This document shows positions 40,010-54,633 of a stretch of DNA of 64,000 nucleotides, piece by piece. Source of the stretch: Candidatus Sungiibacteriota bacterium (GTDB lineage Bacteria > Patescibacteriota > Minisyncoccia > Sungbacterales > JACQCQ01); assembly GCA_016201505.1 (NCBI GenBank), contig JACQCQ010000012.1, positions 10,187 through 74,186 on the forward strand, given 5' to 3'. Within the stretch, counting starts at the first letter, position 1. Each line of letters begins with the position of its first letter. Below the pieces are notes generated by a model, which was not told the DNA's origin, did no database searches, and saw only the letters and a list, made by a program, of their open reading frames with translations. A program made the translations under genes and the position numbers.

Positions 40010-40204
40010 ATGCCCGACATAGCTGTTTTCTACCTGAAGGGTGAGAACGGTGAGTACAAGTTGACGCTCGCGCATCATGGATGCTACACCATTTTCCGGA
40101 TCAAGCACCCGCGCGAAGTAATGGGAACGCCAAAGATCTTTTTGAATTCAGGCAACATCCCCAACTGCCCCATTCACAATGGTGAGCGCACCATGGCGAT
40201 CTAA
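40010..40204 (+). CDS. hypothetical small protein (64 aa)
   Basis: SD (ggaggagcc) before the ATG. Its end overlaps the 3' end of the convergent metG gene. No family assigned. Confidence 0.3.
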   Translation: MPDIAVFYLKGENGEYKLTLAHHGCYTIFRIKHPREVMGTPKIFLNSGNIPNCPIHNGERTMAI

Positions 40205-41640: not shown

Positions 41641-41691
41641 ACGGTGTCCCTACTATAGAGAATGTTGGATAAAGAGCAACTGAAATTTAGT

Positions 41692-42726
41692 TTAGCCGCG
41701 ACGCCGCTTCTTGTGGTCCATGTCGTTTAAAAGCTCAACCACAACGGATGCCATGGGAACGGCCAGCAGCAAGCCCACGATGCCGGCAAGTTCGGCGCCA
41801 ACGAGCAGCGATATTACGACCACGATCGGCGGAATGCCGATGGCGGTTCTCATCACCAGCGGAACGATGACGTGCGATTCTAATTGCTGGACGATCACAA
41901 AGAGAATGACCACCATCAGCGCTAAAAACGGACTCTGCAAAAATGCGACCATAACGGCGGGAATGGCCGCCAACACCGGACCAACAATCGGGACTAACTC
42001 CAAAATCGCGGCGATAAAGGCAAAAACCAGAGCGTACTTTACGTGCAGCAGCGTGAGTCCGAGAAATATGAAAGCGCCGATCAACAGTCCCAGTAAAATT
42101 TGCGCCCGCAGCCACTGGCCCATCTTCCGTTGCGACCGGCTCCATAAATCAACGGCGTATTCTTCGTGCTCTAAAGGAATAATGATGCGAATAAAATCTT
42201 CAATCCCTCTTTCACGAGCCGTCAAATAAAATGAAACGACGATAATAATGACACCCGAGAATACGCCGCCGAAAAAATTAGAGGTAAAGGACAAAACCCC
42301 GCCGGTGAATCCTGAGATATAGCGGGCGGGCTGGGAGAGCGCATCGCGCAAATTGGCGGAGAGAAAATCGGCAAAAGGGACATTACCGATATTTTCAATC
42401 TCGCGCAGGACTTGGCGCTCAAATACCGGATAGGACAAGGTGAATCCCTGAAAATCCTGCGAGATTAAAGGTATGATCAGATAGACGGCCAGCGACAAAA
42501 CCCCGATAACCGAAAGAAAAATCAGAATCGTGCCTAAAATTCGCGGGACTTTTCTTTTTTGCAACCAGCGAATCGCCGGCTCCATGGACGAGGCTACAAC
42601 GACGGCAAATAAAATTACGGCGATCGTCTGGCGCAAAACATAGAAGAGCAGAAAGCCAAGCAAGACCGCAAATACCCGGAAAATGGTCCCGGTTGAGATA
42701 TCGATCATCTGTCGTGTTTGGTTCAT
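41692..42726 (-). CDS. AI-2E family transporter (PerM/YhhT-like permease)
   Basis: Eight-TM topology with the conserved AI-2E central loop. Confidence 0.75.
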   Translation of the reverse strand: MNQTRQMIDISTGTIFRVFAVLLGFLLFYVLRQTIAVILFAVVVASSMEPAIRWLQKRKVPRILGTILIFLSVIGVLSLAVYLIIPLISQDFQGFTLSYPVFERQVLREIENIGNVPFADFLSANLRDALSQPARYISGFTGGVLSFTSNFFGGVFSGVIIIVVSFYLTARERGIEDFIRIIIPLEHEEYAVDLWSRSQRKMGQWLRAQILLGLLIGAFIFLGLTLLHVKYALVFAFIAAILELVPIVGPVLAAIPAVMVAFLQSPFLALMVVILFVIVQQLESHVIVPLVMRTAIGIPPIVVVISLLVGAELAGIVGLLLAVPMASVVVELLNDMDHKKRRRG

Positions 42727-43991
42727 TCTAGTTTTAGGAGCCGTCTGAATTTCGCTTCATCCTTATGGGGCCCAATAAGCGCCAGATTCAGTCGTTCCGG
42801 CCGAAATAGACGGCGCGCCACGCGTTGGATGTCGCGAGCGCTGACTTTCTCAATCTTAGCAAAAACTTCATCAATCGTCAGGGGTTTATGCGTTAAAACT
42901 TCTTCCACGCCGATGAAACTCGCGACCGCATTCGAAGCCTCCAAACCAATCAAAGAAATTCCTCTGACATAATCCTTCGTGCGGGCGAGCTCCCGCGCAC
43001 TGACCAAAGACCGCGTGATCCGGCCGTATTCCTGCATGACAGCAGTGATGGCTTTCTCAACATTTCCGTGCGCCACGCCCGCATAGGTTGTCAAATGGCC
43101 GCGATTCGTATAGGCATCGTTGGAGGTGTGAACGGTATAAGCCAGTCCCAGTCGATCTCGCACCCTATCCCAGATCCTAGAGGACCAGCTACCCCCGAGT
43201 ATGGCCGCTAAAAGCTCGGCGGCATAGCGTTCCCGATCTGAAATCGTTAGTCCTTTAAAACCGACCAGGATATGCGATTGGTCAGTTTCTTTAGCATGAA
43301 GCTTTATACCGAGGGCTTTGGGGGATTCCTTAAATAGTCCTTTAGATCTCGGCCGTGAGGCGCGAACACGGCCGAACAACTTTTTAATTTTAGCGATGAC
43401 TTTAGCTTCCGTAAAATTACCTGCTACAATCACCGCCGTGTTTTCGGCAGTGTACTGATTTTTAAAATAGCCGCGAAACTGCTCCGGTGTGAACGTGCGG
43501 ATATTTTTTTCTGTGCCGATGATCTCCCAACCGGCGTTCTGATCGCCGTATAACAGCCTCTCATAGACATCCCAGACATACCGATCCGGCGTGTCGAGAT
43601 ATTTATGCATCTCTTCGATGATCACCTGACGTTCACGATTAATTTCTTTAGGATCTAACAGCGAGTTGGTGTACACATCGGCCAAAAGATCAAGCGCGGG
43701 ATCCAGATACACATGACCGGCTTTAATGAAATACCCAGTGTATTCGTGACTGGTAAACGCGTTTGAAATGCTCCCCATTGAATCTAATTCATGCTTGATG
43801 GTTTGCGGCGTGGGGCGCCGTTTCGTGCCTTTAAAAAACATGTGTTCCAAAAAGTGAGAAATGCCGCTTTCTTTCCCCGTCTCGTTGTCCGAACCCGTTT
43901 CGCACATAACCAAAACGGTCACCGTATTCGTGCCCTGCATGGGGGCGGTGAGAATCCTAAGCTTGTTGGGCAAAATGGTTTTCTTAAACAT
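42723..43991 (-). CDS. M16 family zinc peptidase (insulinase-like)
   Basis: Inverted zinc motif HFLEHMFFKGT (HxxEH). Confidence 0.85.
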   Translation of the reverse strand: MFKKTILPNKLRILTAPMQGTNTVTVLVMCETGSDNETGKESGISHFLEHMFFKGTKRRPTPQTIKHELDSMGSISNAFTSHEYTGYFIKAGHVYLDPALDLLADVYTNSLLDPKEINRERQVIIEEMHKYLDTPDRYVWDVYERLLYGDQNAGWEIIGTEKNIRTFTPEQFRGYFKNQYTAENTAVIVAGNFTEAKVIAKIKKLFGRVRASRPRSKGLFKESPKALGIKLHAKETDQSHILVGFKGLTISDRERYAAELLAAILGGSWSSRIWDRVRDRLGLAYTVHTSNDAYTNRGHLTTYAGVAHGNVEKAITAVMQEYGRITRSLVSARELARTKDYVRGISLIGLEASNAVASFIGVEEVLTHKPLTIDEVFAKIEKVSARDIQRVARRLFRPERLNLALIGPHKDEAKFRRLLKLE

Positions 43992-44030
43992 AAGAAGTGA
44001 GAAGTTGGGGGTTGGAAATGAGAACCATAG

Positions 44031-45338
44031 TTAAGCGATTTTGGTTCTCAAGTATTCGGCGAGTTCTGTTTCATTGACGCGTTCCTGCTGCATCGAGTCG
44101 CGGTCGCGGACGGTTACCGATCCGTCTTCTAGGGTCTCAAAATCGACCGTGATGGCGTAGGGCGTTCCGATTTCATCCTGCCGGCGGTAACGCTTGCCGA
44201 TATTGCCGATATCATCCCAAGCGACTGCGAGTGAAGACTTAAGGCCCTGATAAATTTCTCTCGCGCGTAAGACCAGCTCGGGCTTATTTGAAAGCAAGGG
44301 GAAGACTGCCGCCGTATAGGGAGCGAGGTTCGGCTTTAGCTTGAGCACGGTGCGCGTTCCCTCCTTATCCGGCTCTGTGGCATAGGCAGAAAGTAAAAGG
44401 GCTAAAATCGTGCGATCAACGCCGAAGGTCGGCTCAATCACATGCGGGACGATGCGTTCTTTTGTGGCCTCATCAAAATAATACAGATCCTTGCCGGAAA
44501 ACTTCGTATGGTTTTGCAGATCATAATCCCCTCGATAGGCGAGGCCGTAGAGCTCATCCTGCCCAAAGGGATATGAAAAATTAAAATCGATAGTCCGTTT
44601 TGAATAAAATGCGCGCTCTGGCGCTGGCACCTCGATCTCTTGCAGACGCAGTCCGAGGGCTTCCCCCCAGGCATTGATATTGGTCCGCCATGCTTCAAAA
44701 TATTTTTCCCAATCATGGGGCCTTACGAAATACTCAATTTCCATTTGACTAAACTCGCGCAGGCGAAATAGCATATTGCCGGGTGTAATTTCATTGCGAA
44801 AGGCTTTGCCGATTTGGGCGATCCCAAACGGCAGGGCGGGATGAAACGAGTCAATGACATTTTTAAAATTTAAAAAAATGCCCTGCGCCGTTTCGGGACG
44901 CAAATAGGTCTCCGCGGCCGAGTCTTCGACCGCGCCGACAAATGTTTTAAACATCATGTGAAAGGGACGGACCTCGCTAAAGTCGTGACTGCTGCAATCA
45001 GGACAGCCGAGCGAGACATCAATTTGATCCGCGCGAAAACGCGACTGGCATTTCTTGCAGTCAATCAGCGGATCAGCAAACGAAGCCACATGCCCCGAGG
45101 CTTTCCAGACGTCGGGGTGTGTAATGACGGACGAATCAAGCCCATACATATCTTCCCGATTTTCAACAAACATTCTCCACCACAGTTTTTCGACGTTTTG
45201 TTTTAAGCGCAGGCCGAGCGGACCGTAATCCCACATGCCGGAAATCCCGCCGTAAATTTCGGAGCCAGGATACATAAAACCTCTCTGCTTAGAAAGCGAG
45301 ATGATGGCCTGCATCAGATTTTCCGTCTTTGCTTTCAT
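44031..45338 (-). CDS. glyQS: glycyl-tRNA synthetase (alpha2 dimeric type)
   Basis: Class II motifs and an anticodon-binding C-terminus; 435 aa. Confidence 0.9.
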   Translation of the reverse strand: MKAKTENLMQAIISLSKQRGFMYPGSEIYGGISGMWDYGPLGLRLKQNVEKLWWRMFVENREDMYGLDSSVITHPDVWKASGHVASFADPLIDCKKCQSRFRADQIDVSLGCPDCSSHDFSEVRPFHMMFKTFVGAVEDSAAETYLRPETAQGIFLNFKNVIDSFHPALPFGIAQIGKAFRNEITPGNMLFRLREFSQMEIEYFVRPHDWEKYFEAWRTNINAWGEALGLRLQEIEVPAPERAFYSKRTIDFNFSYPFGQDELYGLAYRGDYDLQNHTKFSGKDLYYFDEATKERIVPHVIEPTFGVDRTILALLLSAYATEPDKEGTRTVLKLKPNLAPYTAAVFPLLSNKPELVLRAREIYQGLKSSLAVAWDDIGNIGKRYRRQDEIGTPYAITVDFETLEDGSVTVRDRDSMQQERVNETELAEYLRTKIA

Positions 45339-47225
45339 TTAGCGAACGACATGCCAGTCTTTATCGCTCGTCAGCGCGTCACTTTTTAATTCCGTGGTGA
45401 GATCTTCAGAAGTTACTGTAAGCAGTTCGCCCGTAAACATATCGTTCGCACTGACGTTAACCCCGCTTGCGAGAGTTACCGCCCTCGATACGGCATTCTC
45501 TCCCGGTGTTAAAGTCACCCGAAACGCCGCGTACGGCGATGGTTTGGATATACCTGCGCCTGCTTGAACTTTCCCGACTGGCCAGATAATGGCGCCCGAA
45601 GCGCTGTCATAGGAGAGCGAATTTCCCGCCGGAGACGTGGCGTTCTCCCAGGAAACACCCGGGGCTAACCTAGCACGAACGACTACCCCGGACAAATCAT
45701 TCGTCGTATTGGCAAGCTGCCAGACGATGACATAGCTTGTCGTTTGTCCGACCCGCGGCGGTAGTGGGCCGGCAGTTTCTAGATACGAGTTGTGATAGAG
45801 TGAGCGCGCAGAAAGCACGAGACGAGAAGAAACTTTGGCAGTTGAGACATCTTCAGCCGACAAGTCAACGCCTTCAAAACCGACTGGCGTGTCGGCGGCT
45901 TTTATTCTGGCGTCTACCTGAAAGCTCACCTGACGCGTGTCAGAGGTAAAATTGGGCAGCGTTTTTATGCTGAATGAGAGATTGCCTTCAGCATGCGCGG
46001 GAAGTGAATTAAACTGCGGGAATGACCCCGGGTTCCAGATCACTTGACCGGAACTGCCGTCATAGGCGCCGCTTTCTACTAGAAGAGAGCTTTTATCAAT
46101 CCCTTCGCTTGGTAAGGACGCGAGCACCGAAATATTTTTTAGGGGCAGATCCAAATTATTTTTAAAATGGAGCACGGCATGCAGATCGTCTCCGGCGTGA
46201 ATAACCCCGTCATGCGCGCCGTTTAGACTGGCTTCAATGGAAAGCAGCGGGACAAGGATATGGGCATTTTTAGTTGTCGCTTGATACGGAGTCCACTCTT
46301 TGGCGAAAACATTGTATAAACCGACTTTGGCCGTAAAGGGTTTCGATTCAGCTGGAGAACCCTGGATAATGCCTTTAATTGAAATTTTTCCTGAATCTCC
46401 GGGCGAGAGCGTCCCGATTGACCAGATGTTCGTGTCAATCGAAGGCTTGGGATCGGCCGATGCAAATTGGAACCCGGCCGGATACTCTACGCCGAGGTAT
46501 TGATTTTCAAATGGCGCCTCGGCATCCGATGAATATTCGATCGTAAATGCCACCTCTTGGCGCGAAACAAGGTTATCCGGCACGTTCAGCGTGACGACAA
46601 GCGGCACGCGCACAATCGTTACATTTACGCGAGCCTTGTCGACAAAGCGAGCCGAGGAGGATGCGGGACGGTAGAGTATCGAAGCCTCGGCGGTTTTTAT
46701 GTCATTCTCGGCGCCGAAAATTCGGGCATCAATTTCAATTGAGGCTTTCTGCCCCGGCGCTAGATCAACCAGCGTAATCCGCGTATGCGGCGGATTGCCG
46801 CCTGCTCCCTCTTCGCGGAGCGGCGAGGCGCCCACGGGATAGGTAAAATCAAGTTGCATATCTTTTAACGTTTCGCGGCTGCCGTTTTGATAAGACAGCG
46901 TGTAGGTCACGCGCTCGCCCGATTCAATGCGGTCTTTGACGATGAGCGCCATCGAGAGGTCGTGGCGCGCAAATCCGTAGAAAAACAAGAGCACAACCGC
47001 CAGCACCCCGATGGCAAATATCAGCGTGGCCAGTACCGAAAGACGCAGAAATCGCCGACGTTTTTCCCTCGCGGGTGCTTCTATCTTCTCCGCCTCTTCC
47101 ACCTCGCCCCAGGCTGTTTTTATCTCTTCGGGCTTTGATTTGATGACCTCAAAAAAACGCGGGTCTTTGGCTCGCTCCGGTTCATTTTTATAGAGATCGC
47201 GCCGAATATCATCGAGTTTCCCCAT
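45339..47225 (-). CDS. membrane-anchored surface protein with repeated beta-rich (DUF11/CARDB-like) domains, hypothetical
   Basis: N-terminal cytoplasmic segment plus one TM (LSVLATLIFAIGVLAVVLLFF), then about 550 aa of Ser/Thr/Asn-rich repeats. Confidence 0.5.
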   Translation of the reverse strand: MGKLDDIRRDLYKNEPERAKDPRFFEVIKSKPEEIKTAWGEVEEAEKIEAPAREKRRRFLRLSVLATLIFAIGVLAVVLLFFYGFARHDLSMALIVKDRIESGERVTYTLSYQNGSRETLKDMQLDFTYPVGASPLREEGAGGNPPHTRITLVDLAPGQKASIEIDARIFGAENDIKTAEASILYRPASSSARFVDKARVNVTIVRVPLVVTLNVPDNLVSRQEVAFTIEYSSDAEAPFENQYLGVEYPAGFQFASADPKPSIDTNIWSIGTLSPGDSGKISIKGIIQGSPAESKPFTAKVGLYNVFAKEWTPYQATTKNAHILVPLLSIEASLNGAHDGVIHAGDDLHAVLHFKNNLDLPLKNISVLASLPSEGIDKSSLLVESGAYDGSSGQVIWNPGSFPQFNSLPAHAEGNLSFSIKTLPNFTSDTRQVSFQVDARIKAADTPVGFEGVDLSAEDVSTAKVSSRLVLSARSLYHNSYLETAGPLPPRVGQTTSYVIVWQLANTTNDLSGVVVRARLAPGVSWENATSPAGNSLSYDSASGAIIWPVGKVQAGAGISKPSPYAAFRVTLTPGENAVSRAVTLASGVNVSANDMFTGELLTVTSEDLTTELKSDALTSDKDWHVVR

Positions 47226-47240
47226 ACTCTTCCAAGTATA

Positions 47241-47909
47241 TCACGCGGCACTTGGTGGTTTTATCGCCCAACGTCTTAAAAAATTATTGGTTAAAAAAAG
47301 AAAACGCAGTGAAAAATGCATTTCAAATGAGCGGGCAATGGCGGCAAAGGCAGAGGCAATGATCTGGGTTTTAGAGTCTTTTCTGATGTCATTCCATTCG
47401 CGCTCTTCCCAATGCAAAAAGAGATCACGCAGTTCGCGGGTCTTTACAATTTCTTCGTCGGCGGAAAGCCGATAGCCGGAATGGTTTAAAAAGCGGACCA
47501 AAGCCCAGAGCAAAATTCTCGGGGGTTCGTCAGAATCCTGCGCATCCTTAAGCAAGGTAAAAAAAGAAAAAGAGAGATCCCAAAGGCCTGAATCTTCTGC
47601 CTCAAAAGCCGTGTTTCGTATAACCGAGACGAAGGCTTCGGCGGCTTTCAGTTTTTCCTCCGAGCCAATAATCGAGGCCGGCCAGGAGATGAGGCTCGCA
47701 ACTGTTAAACGGTAGCCGTGTCGTGCTTCCACCAATACGAGGTCGGCCAGAGAATATGGCTCCAGATGCCCCTTTAATTTTGCGCCCGGTTTTCTGACTC
47801 CTTGGGCGGTCGCGTGAACCAGACCGAGGTGCTCGGTAAAAATAGTGAACACCAAATCAGCCTCATTTCGTTCCTGCCGCGCCAAAACGAATCCGCGCGT
47901 TCGTGGCAT
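47241..47909 (-). CDS. recO: DNA repair protein RecO
   Basis: OB-fold N-terminus (RGFVLARQERNEADLVFTIFTEHLGLV) followed by a helical C-terminus. Start taken at MPRTRG (47909), 1 nt from the ileS stop. Confidence 0.7.
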   Translation of the reverse strand: MPRTRGFVLARQERNEADLVFTIFTEHLGLVHATAQGVRKPGAKLKGHLEPYSLADLVLVEARHGYRLTVASLISWPASIIGSEEKLKAAEAFVSVIRNTAFEAEDSGLWDLSFSFFTLLKDAQDSDEPPRILLWALVRFLNHSGYRLSADEEIVKTRELRDLFLHWEEREWNDIRKDSKTQIIASAFAAIARSFEMHFSLRFLFLTNNFLRRWAIKPPSAA

Positions 47910-47910
47910 A

Positions 47911-50900
47911 TCAGCGAATACCAATCCAGAGACGCTCGCTTCCGCCAACTGGAATTTCACGCTCGATTTTAAAATTCTTTTTGCCGCCAAGAATGACTTT
48001 TTTGGCGCCGACGTCTCGTTTAATCTGCCCCTGCCATTCTTTTAAGATGCGCTTCGATTTTTCTCCGGCCAGAAACTGAAGGTTAATGGCATCTTGCGGC
48101 AAAAGGCCGAGATCGCGTCGCAATTCCTGGATGTTGCGGACAATTTCCCGAGCCAGCCCCTCGCGCCGCAGCCCCTCTGTCAATGTCGTATCGAGAATAA
48201 TTTTCGGTCCTTTGGCTACCTGCGGTAAAATAATAATCTTTTTGACATTGACCTCGTCTTCCAAGAGACGCTGCATTTCCTTTTTGCGGGAAAACTCCTT
48301 ATGCCGTATGGCAAGAGCAGCCAGCGGCTGGCGAACTTTAATGCCCGCCGCCGCGCGGGCTTTTAGGGCCTCGGCGGCAATCAGCCGAAGTGTTTCCATT
48401 TTTTTCTCGAGCACCGGTCGCATACGCGCGCGCGAGGCAATGGGCCAGTCTCTTAAATGAACGCTTTCTTCCTTGAAGACAAACTTTTTTGAAAGTTCGC
48501 GGTAGATGGCGTCCGCGATATAGGGGGTAAAGGGAGCCACCAATGCCAAGAGAGTCAGAAGAACTTCGCGCGTGGTGCCGGCAACTTCAGCTTTTTCTTT
48601 TTTTGAGCTGGGGCGCTGAAATCTCCTGCGCGATCGGCGCAAATACCAATTGGAAAAATCTTCGACCGTAAACGTCTCGACAAGACGGGCTGCCGAGACC
48701 ACGTCATAGGCTTCCAGATGGCGCGTTACGTCTTGAATCAGATTTTGCAGGCGCGATAGAATCCAGCGATCAAGCAGGGAACCAGATTTCCTCGCGAGAG
48801 AAACTTTGCCCTGCGTATAGGTGTCGAATAACACCCACGAGTTCCAGAGTGTCCCCAAGAATCCGCGCAGTTTCGCCGCCAGATCCTTCTCGTCAAATTT
48901 TTTGGGATCTCCCGGGGCGTTGACCGTATAAAAATACCAGCGAATGGCGTCAACCCCGTAGGTATCAATCATGGCCCAGGGATTTACGATGTTGCCGCGG
49001 GATTTGGACATTTTATGTCCATGCTTATCCAAGACATGGCCCAGCGAAATGACATTTTTATAGGGCGCGCCTTTGGCCAGTAAGGTCGATTCGGCCAGCA
49101 AGGTATAAAACCAGCCTCGTGTCTGATCAACCGCTTCGCAAATATAATCCGCCGGAAAATTTTTGCGCTTTTCAATCAGATCGACGTTTTCAAATGGATA
49201 ATGGATCGCAGCGAACGGCATGGCGCCTGAATCAAACCAGACATCGGCCACTTCCGGGATGCGAGCTTTAACCCCGCCGCAGGAACATCGCATTTTAATT
49301 TCATCAACGTACGGTCGATGCAGATCGATTTCGCCTTCAACGTTTCGCGGCAGGGGTTTTGGTTCAAAAATTTCAAATTCACCCGGCGCAATATACTCGC
49401 CCTGCTTCGGCCAAAGAGCAGCAGACTCTTTCCAAGACTCGCCTTTGATGGTGGCTACTAACATCCAGATCGGGTCGGCGTGCGTAATGATTAAAATAGT
49501 TTTCCCGCGGTATTTTGCCTCAAGCTCCCGAAAGAAAGACAGCATGCGCCGGCGCACGTCTTGTAAGGATTCGCCGTTTGGCGGCTTAGTCTCATATTTT
49601 TCGAGCCGATTTTTAAAAAAGGCGCGGTAGTTTCCGGCGGGGCCCCCATTAAAGTCCCCCGTATCGATTTCGCGCAATCGTTCATCAAAGATAATCTCTT
49701 TGTCGCCTAACATATTTTTTAGAACCTCCAGTGTTTCTTTGGTGCGCACTAAATCGGAGGCCATCACGACGTCAATCCTCTCGGCTACGAGCCGCGGGCC
49801 GGCGCGTTCTACATCGGCGCGCCCTTTTTCGGTGAGATGCGCGGGACTCGTCTCCGGCCACGAAGAAATATAATCTTTGGTTAAATTCTCGGCCTCGCCG
49901 TGCCGCATCAAAATGTAGCGATTGCCTGACGACATCGCGCGCGAGGACAATTCCTCGACCGAAGAAACAGCCGCGACGGCTCCGCAGGCATTGCACTTCC
50001 ACAACGGCAACGTGGTGCCCCAATAACGCTCGCGCGAGAAGGCCCAATCTTTTTCTTCTTTTAGCCATTCCCCGAATCGGCCATGTTTTAAATGCGACGG
50101 AACCCAATGAATGGTCTCGTTATTGCGCATTACGTCTTTGCGCACCGCATTCACCCGGAGCCACCAGGAAGTCCGTGCATAATAGAGTATCGGCGTGTCG
50201 CAGCGCCAGCAAAATGGGTAGTCATGCTCGTAGGCTTCTTCGCGGAATAAGGACCCGATCTTCTGCAGATGCTGTAAAATAAAAAGATCAGTTTCTTTGG
50301 CTTTGACATACTTCCCGCCCAGCCCATTCCCCAGTGCGGCCACAAATTTGCCGTTATCGGAGACGGTGTGAATTGCGGGAAGCCCAACTTTTTTCCCAAG
50401 CCGGTAATCGTCTTCTCCATACATGACTGCCGTATGGACCACACCCGTGCCTTCAGTCCCCAAGACAAAATCGGCAGCGTAAATTTTATATGAATTGTTG
50501 GTCACCAATTCCGGCACATCGAAAAGCGGCTGGTACGTAAGCCCAACGAGTTCTTTCCCAAGAAAGGGCACACTCGCTTTTGAATCTTTCGGCAAGACGC
50601 CGCGTTTTACGAGAATAGAGAAATTATCCTGGCCCACCACAACCCAATTACCTTTTTTTTCAGGATCGGGCACTCGGACATACTGCATGCCTTCCGATAC
50701 CGCGAGCGCCACATTCCCCGGCAATGTCCAGGGCGTTGTGGTCCAGGACAAAATGGCCACGTTCTTCCATTTGGGATCTTGGCTCGTCAATTTAAATCGA
50801 ATGTAAACTGAAGTATCAACAATTGACTTATACCCCAGCGCAATTTCGTGCGATGAAAGACCGGTGCCGCATCTCGTACACCAGGGCAAGACCTTAAAAT

Positions 50901-51516
50901 CCTGATAAAGCAATTTTTTCTTCCAAAATTCAGCAATCATCCACCACAGAGATTCCATATAGGATTTTTCGTAGGTGATGTAAGGACGGGCCATATCCAG
51001 CCAAAAAGCGATGCGTTCAGTAAGATTCTCCCAGTCCTTCACGTACTGCCAAACAGCCTTTCGGCATTGTTCGTTAAAGGCCGCGATGCCGTATTGTTCG
51101 ATGTCTTGTTTTGATTTAAACCCCAACGCTTTTTCTACTTGAATTTCAACCGGCAGCCCATGCGTATCCCAGCCGCCGCGGCGCGGCACATAGTATCCCT
51201 GCATCGATTTAAATCGCGGAATAACGTCTTTAAATGAGCGCGCTTCTATATGATGAAAGCCGGGCGCGGCGTTCGCGGTCGGCGGGCCTTCATAAAAAAT
51301 GAAAGGTTTGCCGCTGGCACGCGCTTTAACCGATTTTTCGAATATTGAATGATCTTTCCAGAATTGAAGAACTTGCTCCTCACGCAAAACTGGCTCTGAT
51401 TTGGGAGTTATTTGGGGCTGGGGTTTTATCATTGGCACGCCCAACTCGACGAGATCTTCGCCCCGTTTTAGCTGGGAGACTGATTTTTTAGCGGTTTTGC
51501 CTTTCTCGGTTGGCAT
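47911..51516 (-). CDS. ileS: isoleucyl-tRNA synthetase with an inserted histidine-phosphatase (PGAM-like) domain (about aa 528-712; nt about 49381-49935)
   Basis: HIGH-like region, CP1 editing domain, WAFSRERYWGTTLP, KMSKSRGN and a C-terminal zinc/junction domain. Between ...SVEELSSRA and ...DLHRPYVDEIK lie about 185 aa carrying RHGEAENL, SDLVRTKET and ILIITHADP, the His-phosphatase branch-1 motifs. Confidence 0.9.
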   Translation of the reverse strand: MPTEKGKTAKKSVSQLKRGEDLVELGVPMIKPQPQITPKSEPVLREEQVLQFWKDHSIFEKSVKARASGKPFIFYEGPPTANAAPGFHHIEARSFKDVIPRFKSMQGYYVPRRGGWDTHGLPVEIQVEKALGFKSKQDIEQYGIAAFNEQCRKAVWQYVKDWENLTERIAFWLDMARPYITYEKSYMESLWWMIAEFWKKKLLYQDFKVLPWCTRCGTGLSSHEIALGYKSIVDTSVYIRFKLTSQDPKWKNVAILSWTTTPWTLPGNVALAVSEGMQYVRVPDPEKKGNWVVVGQDNFSILVKRGVLPKDSKASVPFLGKELVGLTYQPLFDVPELVTNNSYKIYAADFVLGTEGTGVVHTAVMYGEDDYRLGKKVGLPAIHTVSDNGKFVAALGNGLGGKYVKAKETDLFILQHLQKIGSLFREEAYEHDYPFCWRCDTPILYYARTSWWLRVNAVRKDVMRNNETIHWVPSHLKHGRFGEWLKEEKDWAFSRERYWGTTLPLWKCNACGAVAAVSSVEELSSRAMSSGNRYILMRHGEAENLTKDYISSWPETSPAHLTEKGRADVERAGPRLVAERIDVVMASDLVRTKETLEVLKNMLGDKEIIFDERLREIDTGDFNGGPAGNYRAFFKNRLEKYETKPPNGESLQDVRRRMLSFFRELEAKYRGKTILIITHADPIWMLVATIKGESWKESAALWPKQGEYIAPGEFEIFEPKPLPRNVEGEIDLHRPYVDEIKMRCSCGGVKARIPEVADVWFDSGAMPFAAIHYPFENVDLIEKRKNFPADYICEAVDQTRGWFYTLLAESTLLAKGAPYKNVISLGHVLDKHGHKMSKSRGNIVNPWAMIDTYGVDAIRWYFYTVNAPGDPKKFDEKDLAAKLRGFLGTLWNSWVLFDTYTQGKVSLARKSGSLLDRWILSRLQNLIQDVTRHLEAYDVVSAARLVETFTVEDFSNWYLRRSRRRFQRPSSKKEKAEVAGTTREVLLTLLALVAPFTPYIADAIYRELSKKFVFKEESVHLRDWPIASRARMRPVLEKKMETLRLIAAEALKARAAAGIKVRQPLAALAIRHKEFSRKKEMQRLLEDEVNVKKIIILPQVAKGPKIILDTTLTEGLRREGLAREIVRNIQELRRDLGLLPQDAINLQFLAGEKSKRILKEWQGQIKRDVGAKKVILGGKKNFKIEREIPVGGSERLWIGIR

Positions 51517-51590
51517 CTAAAGCTGATTACAGGCTATTGTCTACAGGCTACAGCTGATGCGGTAGTCTGTGGTCGGTAGTCTGTGAGCTT
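51517..51590 (-). promoter_or_regulatory. ileS 5' leader with repeated GGTAGTCTGT / CTGTAG motif family
   Basis: Minus-strand leader reads CACAGACUACCGACCACAGACUACCGCAUCAGCUGUAGCCUGUAGAC...UUUAG AUG, with no SD. A similar motif block lies in the infC-rpmI spacer. Confidence 0.4.
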
Positions 51591-51731
51591 TTTAATAGGT
51601 GTCTCATTCTAGCTGAAAAAATGCCCCCTGCCAAGAGCTTCTTTCACTATCCACTTGTGGAATAAGGCGGGCTCGACTAAGGTGAGAACGGCAAAAATGA
51701 AGGCGCGAAAGTTTTTTGAGGCGAGCGTCCG

Positions 51732-53348
51732 CTACATTTCTTCGGGAGCGGAAATCCCCAAAAGATCCAATGATTTTTTTAAAACAATTTGAGTGGCCCT
51801 CGCTAATTGAAGCCGCGATTTTTTAATATCGGCTGCTGCATCCAAGATGCGTTCTGTCTCATAGAACACATGAAAGTTATGCGCGAGCTCGTAAGCATAG
51901 CGGATGAGTCTCGAAACGCGATAATCCGCGGCAATGTCACGCAGCACATCCGGAAAATCAATTAATTTCCAAATTAAACGATCCTCCGATTCTGAAGCCA
52001 GGAGCGAGACATCGAAATCAGATTTTTCATACGGCTCTTTTATGAAAATCGAACAAAGGCGTGCGTGCGCATACTGAATATAGAAGACCGGATTTTCTTT
52101 GGATCTTTTTTTAGCCAGATCCAAATCAAAATCAATATGCGTCTCGTGATTTTTTTCTAAAAAGAAATACCGCGCCTGATCGAGACCGACTTCATCAATC
52201 AATTCATCAATGGTGACGTATACTCCTGTGCGTTTGGACATCCGCCGCTCAACGCCATTTTCCATCAAACGAACAAGCTGCATTACGATCACTTCAGATT
52301 TCGCCATCCCGATAATTTTCGCTACTGCCTGAATCCTGGAAACGTAACCATGATGATCGGCACCCAAAATATTGATTTTGTGATTAAAACCTCGTTTCTT
52401 GGTTTCTAAATAGTGAGCAGCATCAATAAAAAAGTACGTCGGGAGTCGGTCAGAGGTGACTAGAACTCGATCTTTATCATCTCCATATTTTTTCGTTTTT
52501 AACCATCTGGCACCATCCCTGTCAAAAATAAGATCAGGGGAAATAGATTTCGCAAGCTGTTCAAATTCGATAGTTAAAGGCGGCCGGCTTTGGCGAATAT
52601 CTCGTTGTTCGGATGTCCACCTATCAAAATTGATTTTCATTTTTTTCTCAATTACCGGTCGAATGAGATTTTTAACAAAATCATTTGCAACATATATCCC
52701 GAGAAGCTGAGGATCTTTTAAATAAAGATCCCAGTTCAATGTTTGTTTAGAGTCAAGCCATTCTTTCAAATAATCCCCATGATAATATTTCTCGTCATCT
52801 AGCACCTTGCCCGCTATAGCTAAAATTGAAAGTCCAAGTGTTGTGATCTGGTTCCCGGAATCATTGATATAATATTCACGTTCAACCTCAAAACCCTGCG
52901 AGGCCAGAACGCGAGAAAGCACGTCGCCCAAGAATCCGCCGCGGCCGTTGGCAAGTGTTAAAGGACCGGTTGGATTGGCTGAAATAAACTCGACTTGGAT
53001 TTTTTCGTTGAGGCGACTCTGATTCCCGTAGCGCTCTTTTCCATCTAAGATTCGTGTAAATTCTTTTTTTACTTCAGACTCGGAAATTTGGAAATTCAGG
53101 AATCCCGGAGGAGAAAACGTAATCGTGGCAATGGCCGGATCGATAATTTTTCGCATTAACATCTCGGCCACATCTTGAGGTTGCTTTTTTTCAAGGCCCG
53201 CCAAAACGAGAGGTAAATTGGTGGCATAGTCACCGAGTTCGGCCCTTGGCGGGTGTTCAACCGAAAATGAAACCCCCCCTGGAATCTCCACATTTTTTCG
53301 CAAGATTTCTATAATTCTTTCTCTCATGCCTATGATGTATCTTATCAT
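51732..53348 (-). CDS. argS: arginyl-tRNA synthetase
   Basis: Class I aaRS with N-terminal Add-1, a HIGH region (ANPTGPLTLANGRG), MSKR and a DALR anticodon-binding domain. Confidence 0.9.
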   Translation of the reverse strand: MIRYIIGMRERIIEILRKNVEIPGGVSFSVEHPPRAELGDYATNLPLVLAGLEKKQPQDVAEMLMRKIIDPAIATITFSPPGFLNFQISESEVKKEFTRILDGKERYGNQSRLNEKIQVEFISANPTGPLTLANGRGGFLGDVLSRVLASQGFEVEREYYINDSGNQITTLGLSILAIAGKVLDDEKYYHGDYLKEWLDSKQTLNWDLYLKDPQLLGIYVANDFVKNLIRPVIEKKMKINFDRWTSEQRDIRQSRPPLTIEFEQLAKSISPDLIFDRDGARWLKTKKYGDDKDRVLVTSDRLPTYFFIDAAHYLETKKRGFNHKINILGADHHGYVSRIQAVAKIIGMAKSEVIVMQLVRLMENGVERRMSKRTGVYVTIDELIDEVGLDQARYFFLEKNHETHIDFDLDLAKKRSKENPVFYIQYAHARLCSIFIKEPYEKSDFDVSLLASESEDRLIWKLIDFPDVLRDIAADYRVSRLIRYAYELAHNFHVFYETERILDAAADIKKSRLQLARATQIVLKKSLDLLGISAPEEM

Positions 53349-53608: not shown

Positions 53609-54052
53609 ATGCCGACCTACGTCGAAAACAAACGAGCGCACTTCGACTATTACATCCTCGAAACCTACGAGGCGGGAATAGAGTTAATTGGTTTTGAGGT
53701 AAAAGCCATTCGTGGCGGGCATATGAATCTAATGGGCGCCTTTGTCGTGCCGCGCGCGAATGAACTCTATTTAACAAACGCCACCGTCAGCCGCTACCAG
53801 CCGCAAAATACGCCGCGCGACTATAACCCTGAAAGGTCCAGGCGACTCTTGCTCCATAGGAACGAGATCGCGACCTTAATCGGCAAATCACGTGAATCAG
53901 GCTTGACCTTGATCCCTATCCGCGTATATAGTAAGCGTCGACATATAAAACTTCTCCTCGGCGTCGCACGGCGCAAGAAAAAACTAGACAAGCGCGAAGC
54001 GATTAAAAAACGCTATAGTGAACGGGAGATCCAGAAGGCCACTAGCCACTAG
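53609..54052 (+). CDS. smpB: SsrA-binding protein
   Basis: AHFDYYILETYEAGIELIGFEVKAIR..., the SmpB fold with a basic C-terminal tail. Confidence 0.9.
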   Translation: MPTYVENKRAHFDYYILETYEAGIELIGFEVKAIRGGHMNLMGAFVVPRANELYLTNATVSRYQPQNTPRDYNPERSRRLLLHRNEIATLIGKSRESGLTLIPIRVYSKRRHIKLLLGVARRKKKLDKREAIKKRYSEREIQKATSH

Positions 54053-54110
54053 AAGTCAGCCATTAGTTTTTTAACTAGTTGCTAGTGGCTAGTTGCTAAG
54101 CAACTAGTTC

Positions 54111-54528
54111 GGGGACGCATTTGATTCGACGGATCATTTACATTTAGGCGAAACGCAGACCGAGAAGTTCGGCCAACTCGCTTGCCCTTCCATAGCCCTT
54201 GGCGAAGGAGGGTAAAAGTTCCGAACAATAATACGTGCAAACGTATTCAAATTTGATGGTGCTTTGGCACCCGCTATGGCGTAAGTTATAGCTGCTTCCT
54301 TGCGAAAGAATCGCAAGCATCGGACCATGATGCCTCTTGGTGGGTTCCCGGTGTTATATCGAGGCTGGACTCTCGCCAACCGGTAACGGGAGCGACGAAT
54401 ACCGGAAACGATCGCTGAGTATGTTGCAGGATGTGAAGCTCGCGATTCGTACATAATCCTGCTATGTCTGTAATCATCGTTTTGTTTAGATGAAGATTCG
54501 GACGAGGAGTCACTCTCCTCCGTCTCCA
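54111..54528 (+). ncRNA. ssrA: tmRNA (transfer-messenger RNA)
   Basis: 5' GGGGACGCAUUUGAUUCGACGG matches the tmRNA 5' consensus. Acceptor GGGGACG/CGUCUCC has a G3:U70 wobble. T-arm GAGGA GUCACUC UCCUC, then discriminator A; CCA is not encoded. An internal reading frame GCA AAC GUA UUC AAA UUU GAU GGU GCU UUG GCA CCC GCU AUG GCG UAA gives tag ANVFKFDGALAPAMA. It lies immediately downstream of smpB. Confidence 0.8.
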
Positions 54529-54633
54529 TTAGAACGAATGCAAAAATTAAAGGGCAAAATGCAAAATTTAGGTATCGCCTCGCGATGATTTTTAAATTGT
54601 CATTTTAATTTTTGATATTTAAACTCTAATTTT

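What the first reader, a model, noticed from the sequence alone, without database searches (positions are those of the whole stretch)
49381..49935. Histidine-phosphatase (PGAM-like) domain nested inside isoleucyl-tRNA synthetase
IleRS here is 1201 aa. Between the conserved WxxSRERYWGTxxP...EEL segment and the DLHRPYVDEIK...CxCGG zinc-knuckle/KMSKS-proximal segment, a short linker is normally found. Here about 185 aa are inserted, carrying the diagnostic motifs of branch-1 histidine phosphatases: RHGEAENL (catalytic His in RHG), SDLVRTKET, and a distal ILIITHADP His. The flanking IleRS sequence is intact and in frame, so this is a domain insertion, not an intein: no Cys/Ser...His-Asn splice junctions are present. 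A phosphatase module embedded in an aaRS is highly unusual. It could act on a nucleotide signal such as Ap4A or 2',3'-cNMP, or on (p)ppGpp-like alarmones, or be an editing-related accessory. I know of no described IleRS with this architecture.
Basis: partly seen in the sequence, partly recalled or inferred. Interest (0 to 1): 0.7.

Follow-up and report, generated by a model that had tools for sequence, protein, structure and literature searches.

The report
Phosphatase domain nested inside isoleucyl-tRNA synthetase
The isoleucyl-tRNA synthetase of this Candidatus Sungbacteria genome carries a complete, catalytically intact PhoE-like histidine phosphatase inside one of its zinc-knuckle loops; this undescribed arrangement is the standard IleRS of at least 564 Parcubacteria species, and the phosphatase's substrate is unknown.

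Summary
The minus-strand ORF 47911-51516 is a complete type-2 IleRS (TIGR00392, 836 bits). A whole branch-1 histidine phosphatase domain (PF00300, E = 6.7e-34) is inserted between the CxxC and CxC halves of a zinc knuckle, where Priestia IleRS2 has a 2-residue link. It is not a misassembly or an intein. The protein is 100% identical to a deposited Candidatus Sungbacteria protein. All 120 best full-length homologs carry the insert, and at least 564 species genomes encode a relative (80 of 80 checked are nested). R538, H539, R591, E616, E649 and H679 are conserved. The AlphaFold model (pLDDT 93) matches PhoE. IleRS motifs are intact, so the protein is most likely bifunctional.

New findings:
- Where IleRS lacks the insert, the same phosphatase is a separate gene between argS and ileS, or next to or fused to ArgRS.
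- Tandem arrays of 2-4 copies occur.
- A distant IleRS carries two copies at two other sites.

The substrate is unknown. I found no publication describing this architecture.

The parts
47911..51516 (-). Complete type-2 isoleucyl-tRNA synthetase ORF with nested phosphatase (1201 codons plus stop). The true start is possibly M29 at 51432.
   Evidence: ORF. TIGR00392 scores 836.6 bits against a cutoff of 621.4. Pfam finds tRNA-synt_1, Anticodon_1 and DUF5915. 100% identical to P0121, Candidatus Sungbacteria. Full-length model pLDDT 90.9, pTM 0.84. Best structural matches are PmIleRS2 8C8W and T. thermophilus 1ILE, TM 0.83-0.93 on the target.
49936..51516 (-). IleRS N-terminal part (residues 1-527): first half of the catalytic HUP/Rossmann fold, CP1/editing domain, and the first half of the zinc knuckle.
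   Evidence: Aligns to 1ILE residues 13-481 and 8C8W residues 11-478. The editing motifs WTTTPWTLP, GTGxVHTA and GEDDY are conserved in 118 homologs.
51250..51261 (-). Class I signature motif in the swapped form G-F-H-H (GxHH instead of HxGH), residues 86-89.
   Evidence: Sequence. G is present in 109/118, H in 114/118 and H in 117/118 homologs. GxHH is the natural IleRS2 variant that gives mupirocin hyper-resistance with only mildly affected catalysis (PMC10485003).
49984..49995 (-). First half of the zinc knuckle, C508-N-A-C511.
   Evidence: Both Cys are invariant in 118/118 homologs. Coordinates checked.
49345..49935 (-). The insert (residues 528-724): a complete PhoE-like branch-1 histidine phosphatase domain plus short linkers. 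The folded domain is about 49363-49920 and the Pfam match is 49426-49914.
   Evidence: PF00300 at E = 6.7e-34. Insert boundaries come from the alignment to 8C8W. Insert-only AlphaFold model pLDDT 93.1, pTM 0.90. Foldseek top hit is PhoE/YhfR 1H2E, E = 4.8e-14, TM 0.76. phmmer top hit in the PDB is PhoE 1EBB, E = 7e-15.
49900..49905 (-). R538-H539 of the RHG motif. H539 is the predicted phosphoryl-accepting nucleophile.
   Evidence: H539 is present in 118/118 homologs. R and H are invariant in the 70-sequence alignment and in nested, stand-alone and fused forms. Both align to the RHG of PhoE.
49744..49746 (-). R591 (SDLVRTKET), second arginine of the phosphate pocket.
   Evidence: Invariant. 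Aligns to the conserved Arg of PhoE.
49669..49671 (-). E616 (RLREID), predicted general acid.
   Evidence: E in 112 and D in 6 of 118 homologs. Aligns to ERLREI of PhoE. The assignment as proton donor is by homology with the dPGM/PhoE family (my own knowledge).
49480..49482 (-). H679 (ITHADP), second catalytic histidine.
   Evidence: H in 117/118 homologs. Conserved in all architectural forms.
49279..49287 (-). Second half of the zinc knuckle, C744-S-C746.
   Evidence: Both Cys are invariant in 118/118 homologs. The CxxC...CxC spacing is 226-237 residues in all 118.
47914..49344 (-). IleRS C-terminal part (residues 725-1201): second half of the HUP fold with KMSKS (49000-49014), the anticodon-binding domain, and the type-2 C-terminal domain.
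   Evidence: Aligns to 8C8W residues 481-597 onward. KMSKS is invariant. Anticodon_1 and DUF5915 are found by Pfam.
51732..53348 (-). Arginyl-tRNA synthetase, immediately upstream on the same strand. It is the conserved partner gene of the phosphatase/IleRS pair.
   Evidence: Pfam finds Arg_tRNA_synt_N, tRNA-synt_1d and DALR_1. ArgRS lies upstream on the same strand in 43 of 80 related loci. In relatives the stand-alone phosphatase lies between argS and ileS or is fused to ArgRS.
47241..47990 (-). RecO, immediately downstream. It is part of the conserved gene order.
   Evidence: Pfam finds RecO_N. RecO lies downstream in 39 of 80 related loci and in L006, L009 and L012.

Best explanation
The gene encodes a bifunctional enzyme.

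Shown:
- A complete type-2 IleRS is present, with a GxHH signature motif, an invariant KMSKS and an intact editing site.
- It hosts a complete, independently folding PhoE-like histidine phosphatase of about 190 residues.
- The phosphatase sits in the loop of a four-cysteine zinc knuckle in the connective-peptide region, between the editing domain and the second half of the catalytic fold.
- The nested form is the standard IleRS of Parcubacteria/Paceibacteria.
- The same phosphatase subfamily also occurs as a separate gene wedged between argS and ileS, fused to or overlapping the end of ArgRS, in tandem arrays of 2-4 copies in the same loop, and, in a distant IleRS, at two other surface sites.

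Inferred from family chemistry:
- The phosphatase removes a terminal phosphate through a phospho-His539 intermediate.
- R538, R591 and H679 hold the phosphate, and E616 protonates the leaving group.

Inferred from the comparative pattern:
- The phosphatase is an autonomous module that selection keeps physically or transcriptionally tied to IleRS/ArgRS.
- Because its position in the partner varies, it probably needs proximity or co-expression, not a fixed geometry.
- It therefore probably acts on a diffusible or flexible phosphomonoester linked to tRNA charging.

My ranking of substrates is a small nucleotide-type phosphomonoester (such as AMP or a 2'/3'-phosphonucleotide) first, a terminal phosphate on tRNA second, and a phosphoprotein third.
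For: Domain identity and integrity:
- PF00300 at E = 6.7e-34.
- PhoE is the closest solved relative by sequence and by fold.
- The catalytic residues R538, H539, R591, E616, E649 and H679 are invariant or at least 95% conserved in 118 nested homologs, and in stand-alone, ArgRS-fused, TsaC-fused and tandem copies.
- The rest of the insert drifts: median identity is 41%, against 56% for the IleRS body.

IleRS integrity:
- TIGR00392 scores above its cutoff.
- KMSKS, the zinc cysteines and the editing motifs are invariant.
- GxHH is a documented functional IleRS2 variant.
- The model superposes on 1ILE and 8C8W.

Distribution:
- All 120 top full-length homologs carry PF00300.
- At least 564 species genomes encode a relative.
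- 80 of 80 fetched loci are nested at the same site.

Coupling to IleRS/ArgRS:
- Among the top 150 representatives of the subfamily, 93 of the 97 multi-domain proteins are IleRS, complete or as fragments.
- Stand-alone copies lie directly upstream of an insert-less IleRS in four lineages from two clades, with gaps of 4-10 bp in three of them.
- One stand-alone copy is one gene away from IleRS.
- One overlaps the ArgRS stop codon.
- One is fused to ArgRS on two independent 70-kb contigs.
- P0318 carries two copies at two non-canonical IleRS sites, in 6 cluster members on contigs up to 1.06 Mb.
- Tandem arrays are reproducible.
Against: - No biochemical data exist, and the substrate is entirely inferred.
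- I could not obtain model coordinates, so the position of the phosphatase site relative to the synthetic site, the editing site or the tRNA is unknown.
- Gene order in this region is conserved over more than 10 genes between the window and L012. Adjacency to argS/ileS could therefore be inherited synteny and not selection.
- Patescibacteria fuse unrelated small enzymes freely. TsaC is fused to MGMT-type, TruB, 2H, NUDIX, GNAT and His_Phos domains. This weakens fusion-based inference.
- In two lineages the phosphatase stays with ArgRS and no ileS follows it in the sequence recovered, so the link is not exclusive to IleRS.
- Stand-alone copies show that tethering is not required for function.
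- The domain tree is poorly resolved.
Confidence: 0.55

Rival explanations
1. Neutral passenger. The phosphatase is a general housekeeping enzyme, for example for nucleotide or sugar-phosphate scavenging in a metabolically reduced cell, and its job has nothing to do with IleRS. It began as a neighbour gene in the argS-ileS cluster and became lodged in a tolerant surface loop during genome compaction. It stays there because un-nesting is difficult.
For: - Stand-alone copies are fully conserved and so work in trans.
- Synteny of the whole region is conserved over more than 10 genes.
- Patescibacterial TsaC is fused to at least six unrelated enzyme domains.
- The phosphatase stays with ArgRS in lineages where no ileS follows it in the sequence recovered.
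- PhoE-type enzymes have broad specificity (my own knowledge of PhoE/YhfR).
Against: - A distant IleRS acquired two copies at two different sites.
- Arrays of 2-4 diverged copies occur in the same loop.
- 93 of the 97 multi-domain proteins among the closest 150 representatives are IleRS.
- Such recurrence is not expected from chance hitch-hiking.
Confidence: 0.3
2. Resistance or detoxification module. IleRS is a frequent antibiotic target, and accessory enzyme domains embedded in it (His_Phos here, GNAT in other IleRS proteins) inactivate inhibitors at the target.
For: - The family carries the GxHH motif that confers mupirocin hyper-resistance. This indicates a history of selection by IleRS inhibitors.
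- NCBIfam has a curated family of IleRS with a GNAT domain, NF040702.
- P0376 carries His_Phos and GNAT together.
- GNATs next to aaRS genes detoxify aaRS-inhibitor warheads (bioRxiv 10.64898/2025.12.02.691738).
Against: - I know of no natural IleRS inhibitor with a phosphomonoester.
- Dephosphorylation more often activates than inactivates antibiotics (my own knowledge).
- The ArgRS and TsaC fusions and the stand-alone copies do not fit a target-specific shield.
- I did not test whether the GNAT in NF040702 occupies the same site.
Confidence: 0.07
3. One reading: the domain hydrolyses Ap4A, 2',3'-cyclic NMPs or (p)ppGpp, or assists editing.
For: aaRSs can produce Ap4A, and isoleucine starvation is linked to the stringent response (general knowledge). 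Some histidine phosphatases of branch 2 attack terminal phosphoanhydrides (my own knowledge).
Against: - Branch-1 enzymes transfer a terminal phosphoryl group to histidine. Ap4A and cyclic NMPs have no terminal phosphomonoester.
- The closest relatives are monoesterases: PhoE, PspA, CobC and GpgP.
- The CP1 editing site is intact and needs no helper.
- ArgRS, a partner in two lineages, does not form an aminoacyl-adenylate without tRNA (my own knowledge).
Confidence: 0.05
4. Pseudo-enzyme or structural appendage. The fold is kept only as a tRNA-binding or scaffolding surface, or it is the cell's glycolytic phosphoglycerate mutase.
For: Inserted domains in aaRSs often serve RNA binding. The domain is annotated by similarity to dPGM models.
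Against: - All catalytic residues are conserved in every form, which argues against a dead enzyme.
- All dPGM, CobC, SixA and PspA equivalog models score far below their cutoffs. For example TIGR01258 scores 37.2 against 81.7 and NF038349 scores 72.5 against 225.
- The domain lacks the longer dPGM cap: about 185 residues here against about 230-250 in dPGMs.
Confidence: 0.03
5. Artefact: a chimeric misassembly, an intein, or a mobile element inserted in ileS.
For: None beyond the unusual length of the ORF.
Against: - The same architecture is found at the same site in hundreds of independent assemblies, including a complete genome, CP011215.1.
- There is no composition break across the junctions.
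- There is no intein or Hint domain, and no His-Asn followed by Cys/Ser/Thr at the C-terminal junction (and the sequence itself).
- The insert is a high-confidence phosphatase fold.
Confidence: 0

Closest known systems
PhoE / YhfR broad-specificity phosphatase of Geobacillus stearothermophilus (PDB 1EBB, 1H2E), histidine phosphatase superfamily branch 1
   Same: It is the closest solved relative of the insert by sequence (E = 7e-15) and by fold (TM 0.76, 29% identity). It has the same size, the same short two-helix cap and the same catalytic residues.
   Different: PhoE is a free-standing protein. Here the domain is nested in an aaRS loop, and it belongs to its own subfamily (signature N.Y..RHGEAE.N....SSWPE....LT.KG). 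No NCBIfam equivalog model reaches its cutoff.
Type-2 IleRS (Thermus thermophilus 1ILE; Priestia megaterium IleRS2 8C8U/8C8V/8C8W)
   Same: The host protein matches at E = 6e-239 and TM 0.83-0.93. It has the same domain order, the same zinc knuckles and a type-2 C-terminal domain. Its GxHH motif is the one in the hyper-resistant variant 8C8W.
   Different: The solved enzymes have a 2-residue link (Pm residues 478-481) where this protein has about 197 residues.
NCBIfam NF040702 'ileS_w_GNAT': IleRS containing an N-acetyltransferase domain
   Same: It is a curated precedent for an extra enzymatic domain inside IleRS. One relative (P0376) carries His_Phos and a GNAT together.
   Different: The window protein has no GNAT and scores 280 bits against a cutoff of 1999. 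I did not establish whether the GNAT in that family sits in the same loop.
Rv2228c-type bifunctional RNase H / CobC-like acid phosphatase (NCBIfam NF005567)
   Same: It is also a nucleic-acid enzyme fused to a small branch-1 histidine phosphatase, and it is the best NCBIfam hit for the insert alone (85.5 bits).
   Different: That is an end-to-end fusion and not a nested one, with a different partner. The score is far below the cutoff of 326, so the window protein is not a member.
E. coli CCA-adding enzyme HD domain (2',3'-cyclic phosphodiesterase / phosphatase activities; my own knowledge, not checked here)
   Same: It is a tRNA-handling enzyme that carries a phosphoesterase module thought to clean up tRNA 3' ends. 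It is a functional analogy for the tRNA-end hypothesis.
   Different: The fold is unrelated (HD, metal-dependent) and the fusion is terminal. A search for a link in Patescibacteria found nothing.

Membership tests
Histidine phosphatase superfamily, branch 1 (Pfam PF00300) | Profile match above the curated threshold | tested here: met
   117.7 bits against a cutoff of 21.7, E = 6.7e-34, residues 535-697.
Histidine phosphatase superfamily, branch 1 (Pfam PF00300) | Catalytic core: RHG nucleophile His with its Arg, a second Arg, a second His and an acidic proton donor | tested here: met
   R538, H539, R591, H679 and E616 are present. They align to PhoE and are conserved in 118 homologs.
Histidine phosphatase superfamily, branch 1 (Pfam PF00300) | Alpha/beta PGAM-like fold | tested here: met
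   AlphaFold model pLDDT 93.1. All top 50 Foldseek PDB hits shown are branch-1 phosphatases or mutases, with PhoE first.
Histidine phosphatase superfamily, branch 1 (Pfam PF00300) | Phosphatase or mutase activity through a phospho-histidine intermediate | not testable with these tools
   This needs an enzyme assay with an H539A control.
Isoleucyl-tRNA synthetase, type 2 (TIGR00392; IleRS2) | Equivalog profile above the cutoff | tested here: met
   836.6 bits against a cutoff of 621.4.
Isoleucyl-tRNA synthetase, type 2 (TIGR00392; IleRS2) | Class I signature motifs HIGH and KMSKS | tested here: met
   KMSKS is invariant. HIGH is present as GFHH, the GxHH variant documented as functional only in IleRS2.
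Isoleucyl-tRNA synthetase, type 2 (TIGR00392; IleRS2) | CP1 editing domain with its threonine-rich and GTG.VH/D motifs | tested here: met
   WTTTPWTLP, GTGVVHTA and GEDDY are present and conserved.
Isoleucyl-tRNA synthetase, type 2 (TIGR00392; IleRS2) | Type-2 C-terminal organisation (no C-terminal zinc-binding domain) | tested here: met
   Pfam DUF5915 matches at 1106-1181. The best structural matches are IleRS2 enzymes, and IleRS1 ranks lower.
Cofactor-dependent phosphoglycerate mutase (dPGM; TIGR01258, NF038349 and related equivalogs) | Equivalog profile above the cutoff | tested here: not met
   TIGR01258 scores 37.2 against 81.7, and NF038349 scores 72.5 against 225.
Alpha-ribazole phosphatase CobC (TIGR03162) | Equivalog profile above the cutoff | tested here: not met
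   81.1 bits against a cutoff of 162.9.
Phosphohistidine phosphatase SixA (TIGR00249) | Equivalog profile above the cutoff | tested here: not met
   28.2 bits against a cutoff of 74.5.
IleRS with GNAT domain (NF040702) | Profile above the cutoff, and presence of an acetyltransferase domain | tested here: not met
   280.2 bits against a cutoff of 1999, and no GNAT family in the Pfam scan.
Acquired mupirocin-resistance IleRS MupA / MupB (NF000257, NF000258) | Exception-level profile above the cutoff | tested here: not met
   749 and 764 bits against a cutoff of 1900. This is ordinary IleRS2 homology only.
Intein | Hint/intein domain; Cys/Ser at the N-junction; His-Asn followed by Cys/Ser/Thr at the C-junction | tested here: not met
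   No Hint or intein family appears in the Pfam scan. The insert folds as a phosphatase. The C-junction reads ...PLPRNVEGEIDLHRPY, with no HN[CST].

The most novel reading that the evidence does not exclude
The phosphatase is a dedicated, previously unrecognised accessory activity of tRNA charging in Parcubacteria and some other lineages. It would clear a phosphorylated nucleotide product, or heal phosphorylated tRNA ends, at the synthetase itself. Selection would have attached it to IleRS (and ArgRS) several times independently: at three different insertion sites, in arrays of up to four copies, and as an operon partner. That would add a new enzymatic step to the aminoacylation machinery of a major bacterial radiation.
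Probability: 0.25. Interest if true: 0.8.

Novelty: new variant of a known kind. Interest (0 to 1): 0.6.

Why it matters
Aminoacyl-tRNA synthetases rarely carry catalytic domains other than their own editing modules. Here an apparently active phosphatase is built into the catalytic body of the only IleRS type seen across a whole class of ultra-small bacteria.

The same phosphatase reappears as an operon neighbour, as an ArgRS fusion, in multi-copy arrays, and at other sites in a distant IleRS. If it serves tRNA charging, this points to an unknown requirement of translation in these organisms. If it is a passenger, it is a clear example of how streamlined genomes pack unrelated enzymes into essential proteins.

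There are practical consequences too:
- Metabolic reconstructions that score PF00300 as 'phosphoglycerate mutase' will mis-assign this IleRS domain.
- The family's GxHH motif predicts intrinsic mupirocin hyper-resistance.

The question can be tested directly with recombinant protein.

Tried and rejected
1. 'Split IleRS' idea. About 22 proteins start with His_Phos and continue into the IleRS C-half. Their N-termini begin at arbitrary points, one carries the MCIRDR adapter signature, and P0246 starts 45 nt from a contig end. They are contig-end fragments. P0015/L005 is an IleRS broken into 4 ORFs, probably by frameshifts.

2. TsaC (threonylcarbamoyl-AMP synthase)-His_Phos fusion as evidence for coupling to adenylate-forming enzymes in general. 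The fusion is real (TIGR00057 above its cutoff) and is not near ileS. However, it is confined to about 5 clusters, and TsaC in Patescibacteria is fused to many unrelated domains. I downgraded it.

3. Inorganic pyrophosphatase idea. A literature search for the status of PPase in Patescibacteria gave nothing usable. I could not survey genomes for ppa.

4. CCA-adding enzyme HD-domain complementation idea. The preprint says only that Patescibacteria have canonical CCA2 enzymes. This lead is dead.

5. 'Tiarins' preprint. It is relevant only as a concept, GNAT immunity against aaRS inhibitors. It does not describe nested domains.

6. The first genome scan, with a diverse alignment, failed for lack of a conserved stretch. 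I repeated it with a tighter alignment.

8. The domain phylogeny (NJ, 170 columns) is too poorly resolved to say whether the nested or the stand-alone form came first.

9. P0317 sits on a 965-nt contig and gives no context.

10. Model coordinates are not exposed. I could not measure the distance from the phosphatase site to the synthetic site, the editing site or the tRNA.


Full report
**Observation**

The minus-strand ORF 47911-51516 encodes 1201 residues. Pfam finds tRNA-synt_1 (48-530 plus a second stretch), His_Phos_1 (535-697, E = 6.7e-34), Anticodon_1 and DUF5915. NCBIfam's IleRS equivalog TIGR00392 scores 836.6 bits against a cutoff of 621.4.

The coordinates in the finding (49381-49935) translate to residues 528-712 and contain the three quoted motifs. 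An alignment to Priestia megaterium IleRS2 (8C8W) breaks between its residues 478 and 481. So about 197 residues (528-724; window 49345-49935) replace a 2-residue link. The insert lies between C508-x-x-C511 and C744-x-C746, four cysteines that are invariant in 118 homologs.

By the residue ranges given in PMC10485003 (HUP core 40-168 and 513-632 in PmIleRS2), the site lies in the connective-peptide region after CP1/editing. The exact CP name is my inference. GC content shows no discontinuity across the junctions. The start codon is uncertain: homolog N-termini align at M29 (51432), and neither candidate start has a clear ribosome-binding site.

**Is it real?**

Yes. The protein is 100% identical to an NCBI/UniRef entry from a Candidatus Sungbacteria MAG. 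All 120 best full-length homologs (47-68% identity, 1147-1373 aa) have PF00300 precomputed.

They include Sung-, Yonath-, Vogel-, Nomura-, Wolfe-, Kaiser-, Giovannoni-, Campbell- and Tagabacteria, and the complete genome CP011215.1. All 80 fetched loci have the domain nested at the same place. ArgRS lies upstream in 43 of them and RecO downstream in 39. Misassembly is therefore excluded. There is no intein signature (and the sequence itself).

**What the insert is**

The closest solved protein by sequence is the broad-specificity phosphatase PhoE/YhfR (1EBB/1H2E, E = 7e-15), with all catalytic positions aligned. An AlphaFold model of residues 522-732 has pLDDT 93.1 and pTM 0.90. Foldseek puts PhoE first (TM 0.76), followed by small phosphatases (PspA, CobC, Rv2419c, TIGAR) and dPGMs. 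No NCBIfam equivalog (dPGM, CobC, SixA, PspA, Rv2228c) reaches its cutoff. The insert is therefore a distinct PhoE-like subfamily.

H539 is present in 118 of 118 homologs, H679 in 117, E649 in 118 and E616 in 112 (D in the other 6). R538 and R591 are invariant in the 70-sequence alignment. The insert as a whole is only 41% identical (median), against 56% for the IleRS body. That pattern indicates selection on catalysis.

**The host**

KMSKS, the two zinc knuckles and the editing motifs are invariant. The class I signature is GFHH: the GxHH form is found in 109-117 of 118 relatives. PMC10485003 shows that this natural IleRS2 variant gives mupirocin hyper-resistance with little loss of activity.

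The full-length model (residues 29-1201) has pLDDT 90.9 and pTM 0.84, with the insert at 91-96. It superposes on 1ILE and 8C8W. Both modules look functional, so the protein is most likely bifunctional.

**Comparative pattern (new)**

An exhaustive phmmer search with the insert alone found 1106 representatives at E <= 1e-10. The best 150 sort as follows:

| Class | Number |
|---|---|
| Nested in IleRS | 65 |
| IleRS fragments | 28 |
| Stand-alone, about 190 aa | 53 |
| ArgRS C-terminal fusion | 1 |
| TsaC fusions | 2 |
| Double domain (His_Phos + His_Phos) | 1 |

- **Stand-alone genes next to ileS.** They sit directly upstream of an insert-less, complete IleRS in four lineages from two clades of the domain tree. 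The gaps are 4-10 bp in three of them and 265 bp in the fourth. ArgRS lies further upstream.
- **Other stand-alone contexts.** One copy is one gene away from IleRS. One overlaps the ArgRS stop codon with no IleRS following on that short contig.
- **ArgRS fusion.** It occurs on two independent 70-kb contigs whose gene order matches the window gene for gene, except that ileS is absent.
- **Tandem copies.** Within IleRS, 2, 3 or 4 tandem copies occur, each keeping RHG and, where the copy is complete, the distal His. The two-copy form recurs in three cluster members.
- **Other insertion sites.** A distant IleRS (P0318, 34-38% identity, six cluster members, contigs up to 1.06 Mb) has an ordinary short zinc knuckle. 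It carries two phosphatase domains at two other sites: one after WFESGSMPYA, and one at the start of the anticodon-binding domain.

Catalytic residues are conserved in every form.

**Interpretation**

The phosphatase is an autonomous, active module that stays tied to IleRS and ArgRS in changing physical arrangements. Because its position varies, precise channelling is unlikely. Proximity or co-expression seems to be what is kept.

The family chemistry is transfer of a terminal phosphoryl group to histidine. The PhoE-like short cap points to a small phosphomonoester. I rank a nucleotide-type substrate first, a tRNA terminal phosphate second and a phosphoprotein third. All three rankings are inference.

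(p)ppGpp carries terminal phosphates and is not excluded by the chemistry. Nothing here supports any of the three, or an editing role.

**Main rival**

The phosphatase may be a housekeeping enzyme riding in an essential gene. In favour:
- Stand-alone copies work in trans.
- Regional synteny is conserved over more than 10 genes.
- Patescibacterial TsaC is fused to MGMT-type, TruB, 2H, NUDIX, GNAT and His_Phos domains alike.

Against: independent insertions at other IleRS sites, multi-copy arrays, and the fact that 93 of 97 multi-domain occurrences are IleRS. I put functional coupling at about 0.55 and the passenger model at about 0.3.

A resistance-module idea is a weak third. It rests on the GxHH motif, the curated 'ileS_w_GNAT' family, a relative with both His_Phos and GNAT, and GNAT immunity to aaRS inhibitors.

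**Prior knowledge**

Five full-text searches found no description. Two recent IleRS structure and evolution papers, one of which annotates about 96,000 IleRS sequences, do not mention a phosphatase or Patescibacteria. The sequences themselves have been public for years, annotated only as IleRS or 'class I tRNA ligase family protein'. I therefore class this as a new, undescribed variant of a known kind, not a new kind of system.

**Limits**

There are no coordinates for the models, no biochemistry and no whole-genome presence/absence analysis. The domain tree is poorly resolved. The taxon of the P0318 lineage is unknown.

Noticed in passing
window 51250-51261 (-): The IleRS class I signature motif is GFHH (GxHH) and not HxGH, and 109-117 of 118 relatives share this form. 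In IleRS2 this swap is reported to confer mupirocin hyper-resistance (PMC10485003). The Parcubacteria IleRS is therefore predicted to be intrinsically hyper-resistant.
   Followed up: partly
P0376 (1066 aa, JGI metagenome; not in the window): This IleRS fragment carries three foreign domains. A REP-associated tyrosine transposase / IS200-like domain sits at residues 326-472 inside the N-terminal part (NF047646, 81.3 bits against a cutoff of 80). His_Phos follows at 680-854 and a GNAT at 935-1063. It is either a remarkable multi-insert IleRS or a chimeric gene call.
   Followed up: no
P0390-P0502: In Patescibacteria the t6A enzyme TsaC (YrdC domain) is fused to many different partners. The commonest is the MGMT-type DNA-binding domain PF01035. 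Others are TruB, 2H/cyclic phosphodiesterase (PF13563/PF07823), NUDIX, GNAT, methylpurine glycosylase and His_Phos. Gene fusion of small housekeeping enzymes seems pervasive in these genomes.
   Followed up: no
L001 6571-6834: A 265-bp intergenic spacer lies between the stand-alone phosphatase and ileS in an otherwise AT-rich genome. It reads as conspicuously GC-rich and repeat-like by eye. Its nature is unknown. I did not scan it for RNA families.
   Followed up: no
L001 10654-12063: A reverse transcriptase (RVT_1) lies next to a bAvd / 23S_rRNA_IVP-family gene, just downstream of ileS. This looks like a diversity-generating retroelement.
   Followed up: no
window 53609-54531 (+): SmpB (53609-54052) is followed directly by tmRNA (54111-54531; Rfam RF00023, 62 bits). 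The pair is divergent from the argS-ileS-recO cluster. ARAGORN did not report the tmRNA, although Rfam did.
   Followed up: no
window 40201-53348 (-): Four aaRS genes lie in 13 kb on one strand: ArgRS, IleRS, a class II tRNA-synt_2b/HGTP enzyme (44031-45338) and MetRS (40201-41640). They are interleaved with RecO, a 628-aa DUF11 surface-type protein, an M16 peptidase and an AI-2E transporter. From ArgRS through the AI-2E transporter the order is the same as in L012, apart from ileS.
   Followed up: partly
window 47911-47990: The longest RecO ORF (TTG start at 47990) overlaps the 3' end of ileS by 80 nt. The real RecO start is probably further downstream.
   Followed up: no
L011 2102-2422: In one relative a 106-aa tRNA_bind (PF01588, Trbp111/EMAP-like) gene overlaps the stop of the phosphatase-containing ileS.
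   Followed up: no
L010 3838-6600: In one lineage a radical-SAM gene and a PALP (PLP-dependent, threonine-synthase/cysteine-synthase-like) gene flank the stand-alone phosphatase, between argS and ileS. This is a single occurrence and its meaning is unknown.
   Followed up: no
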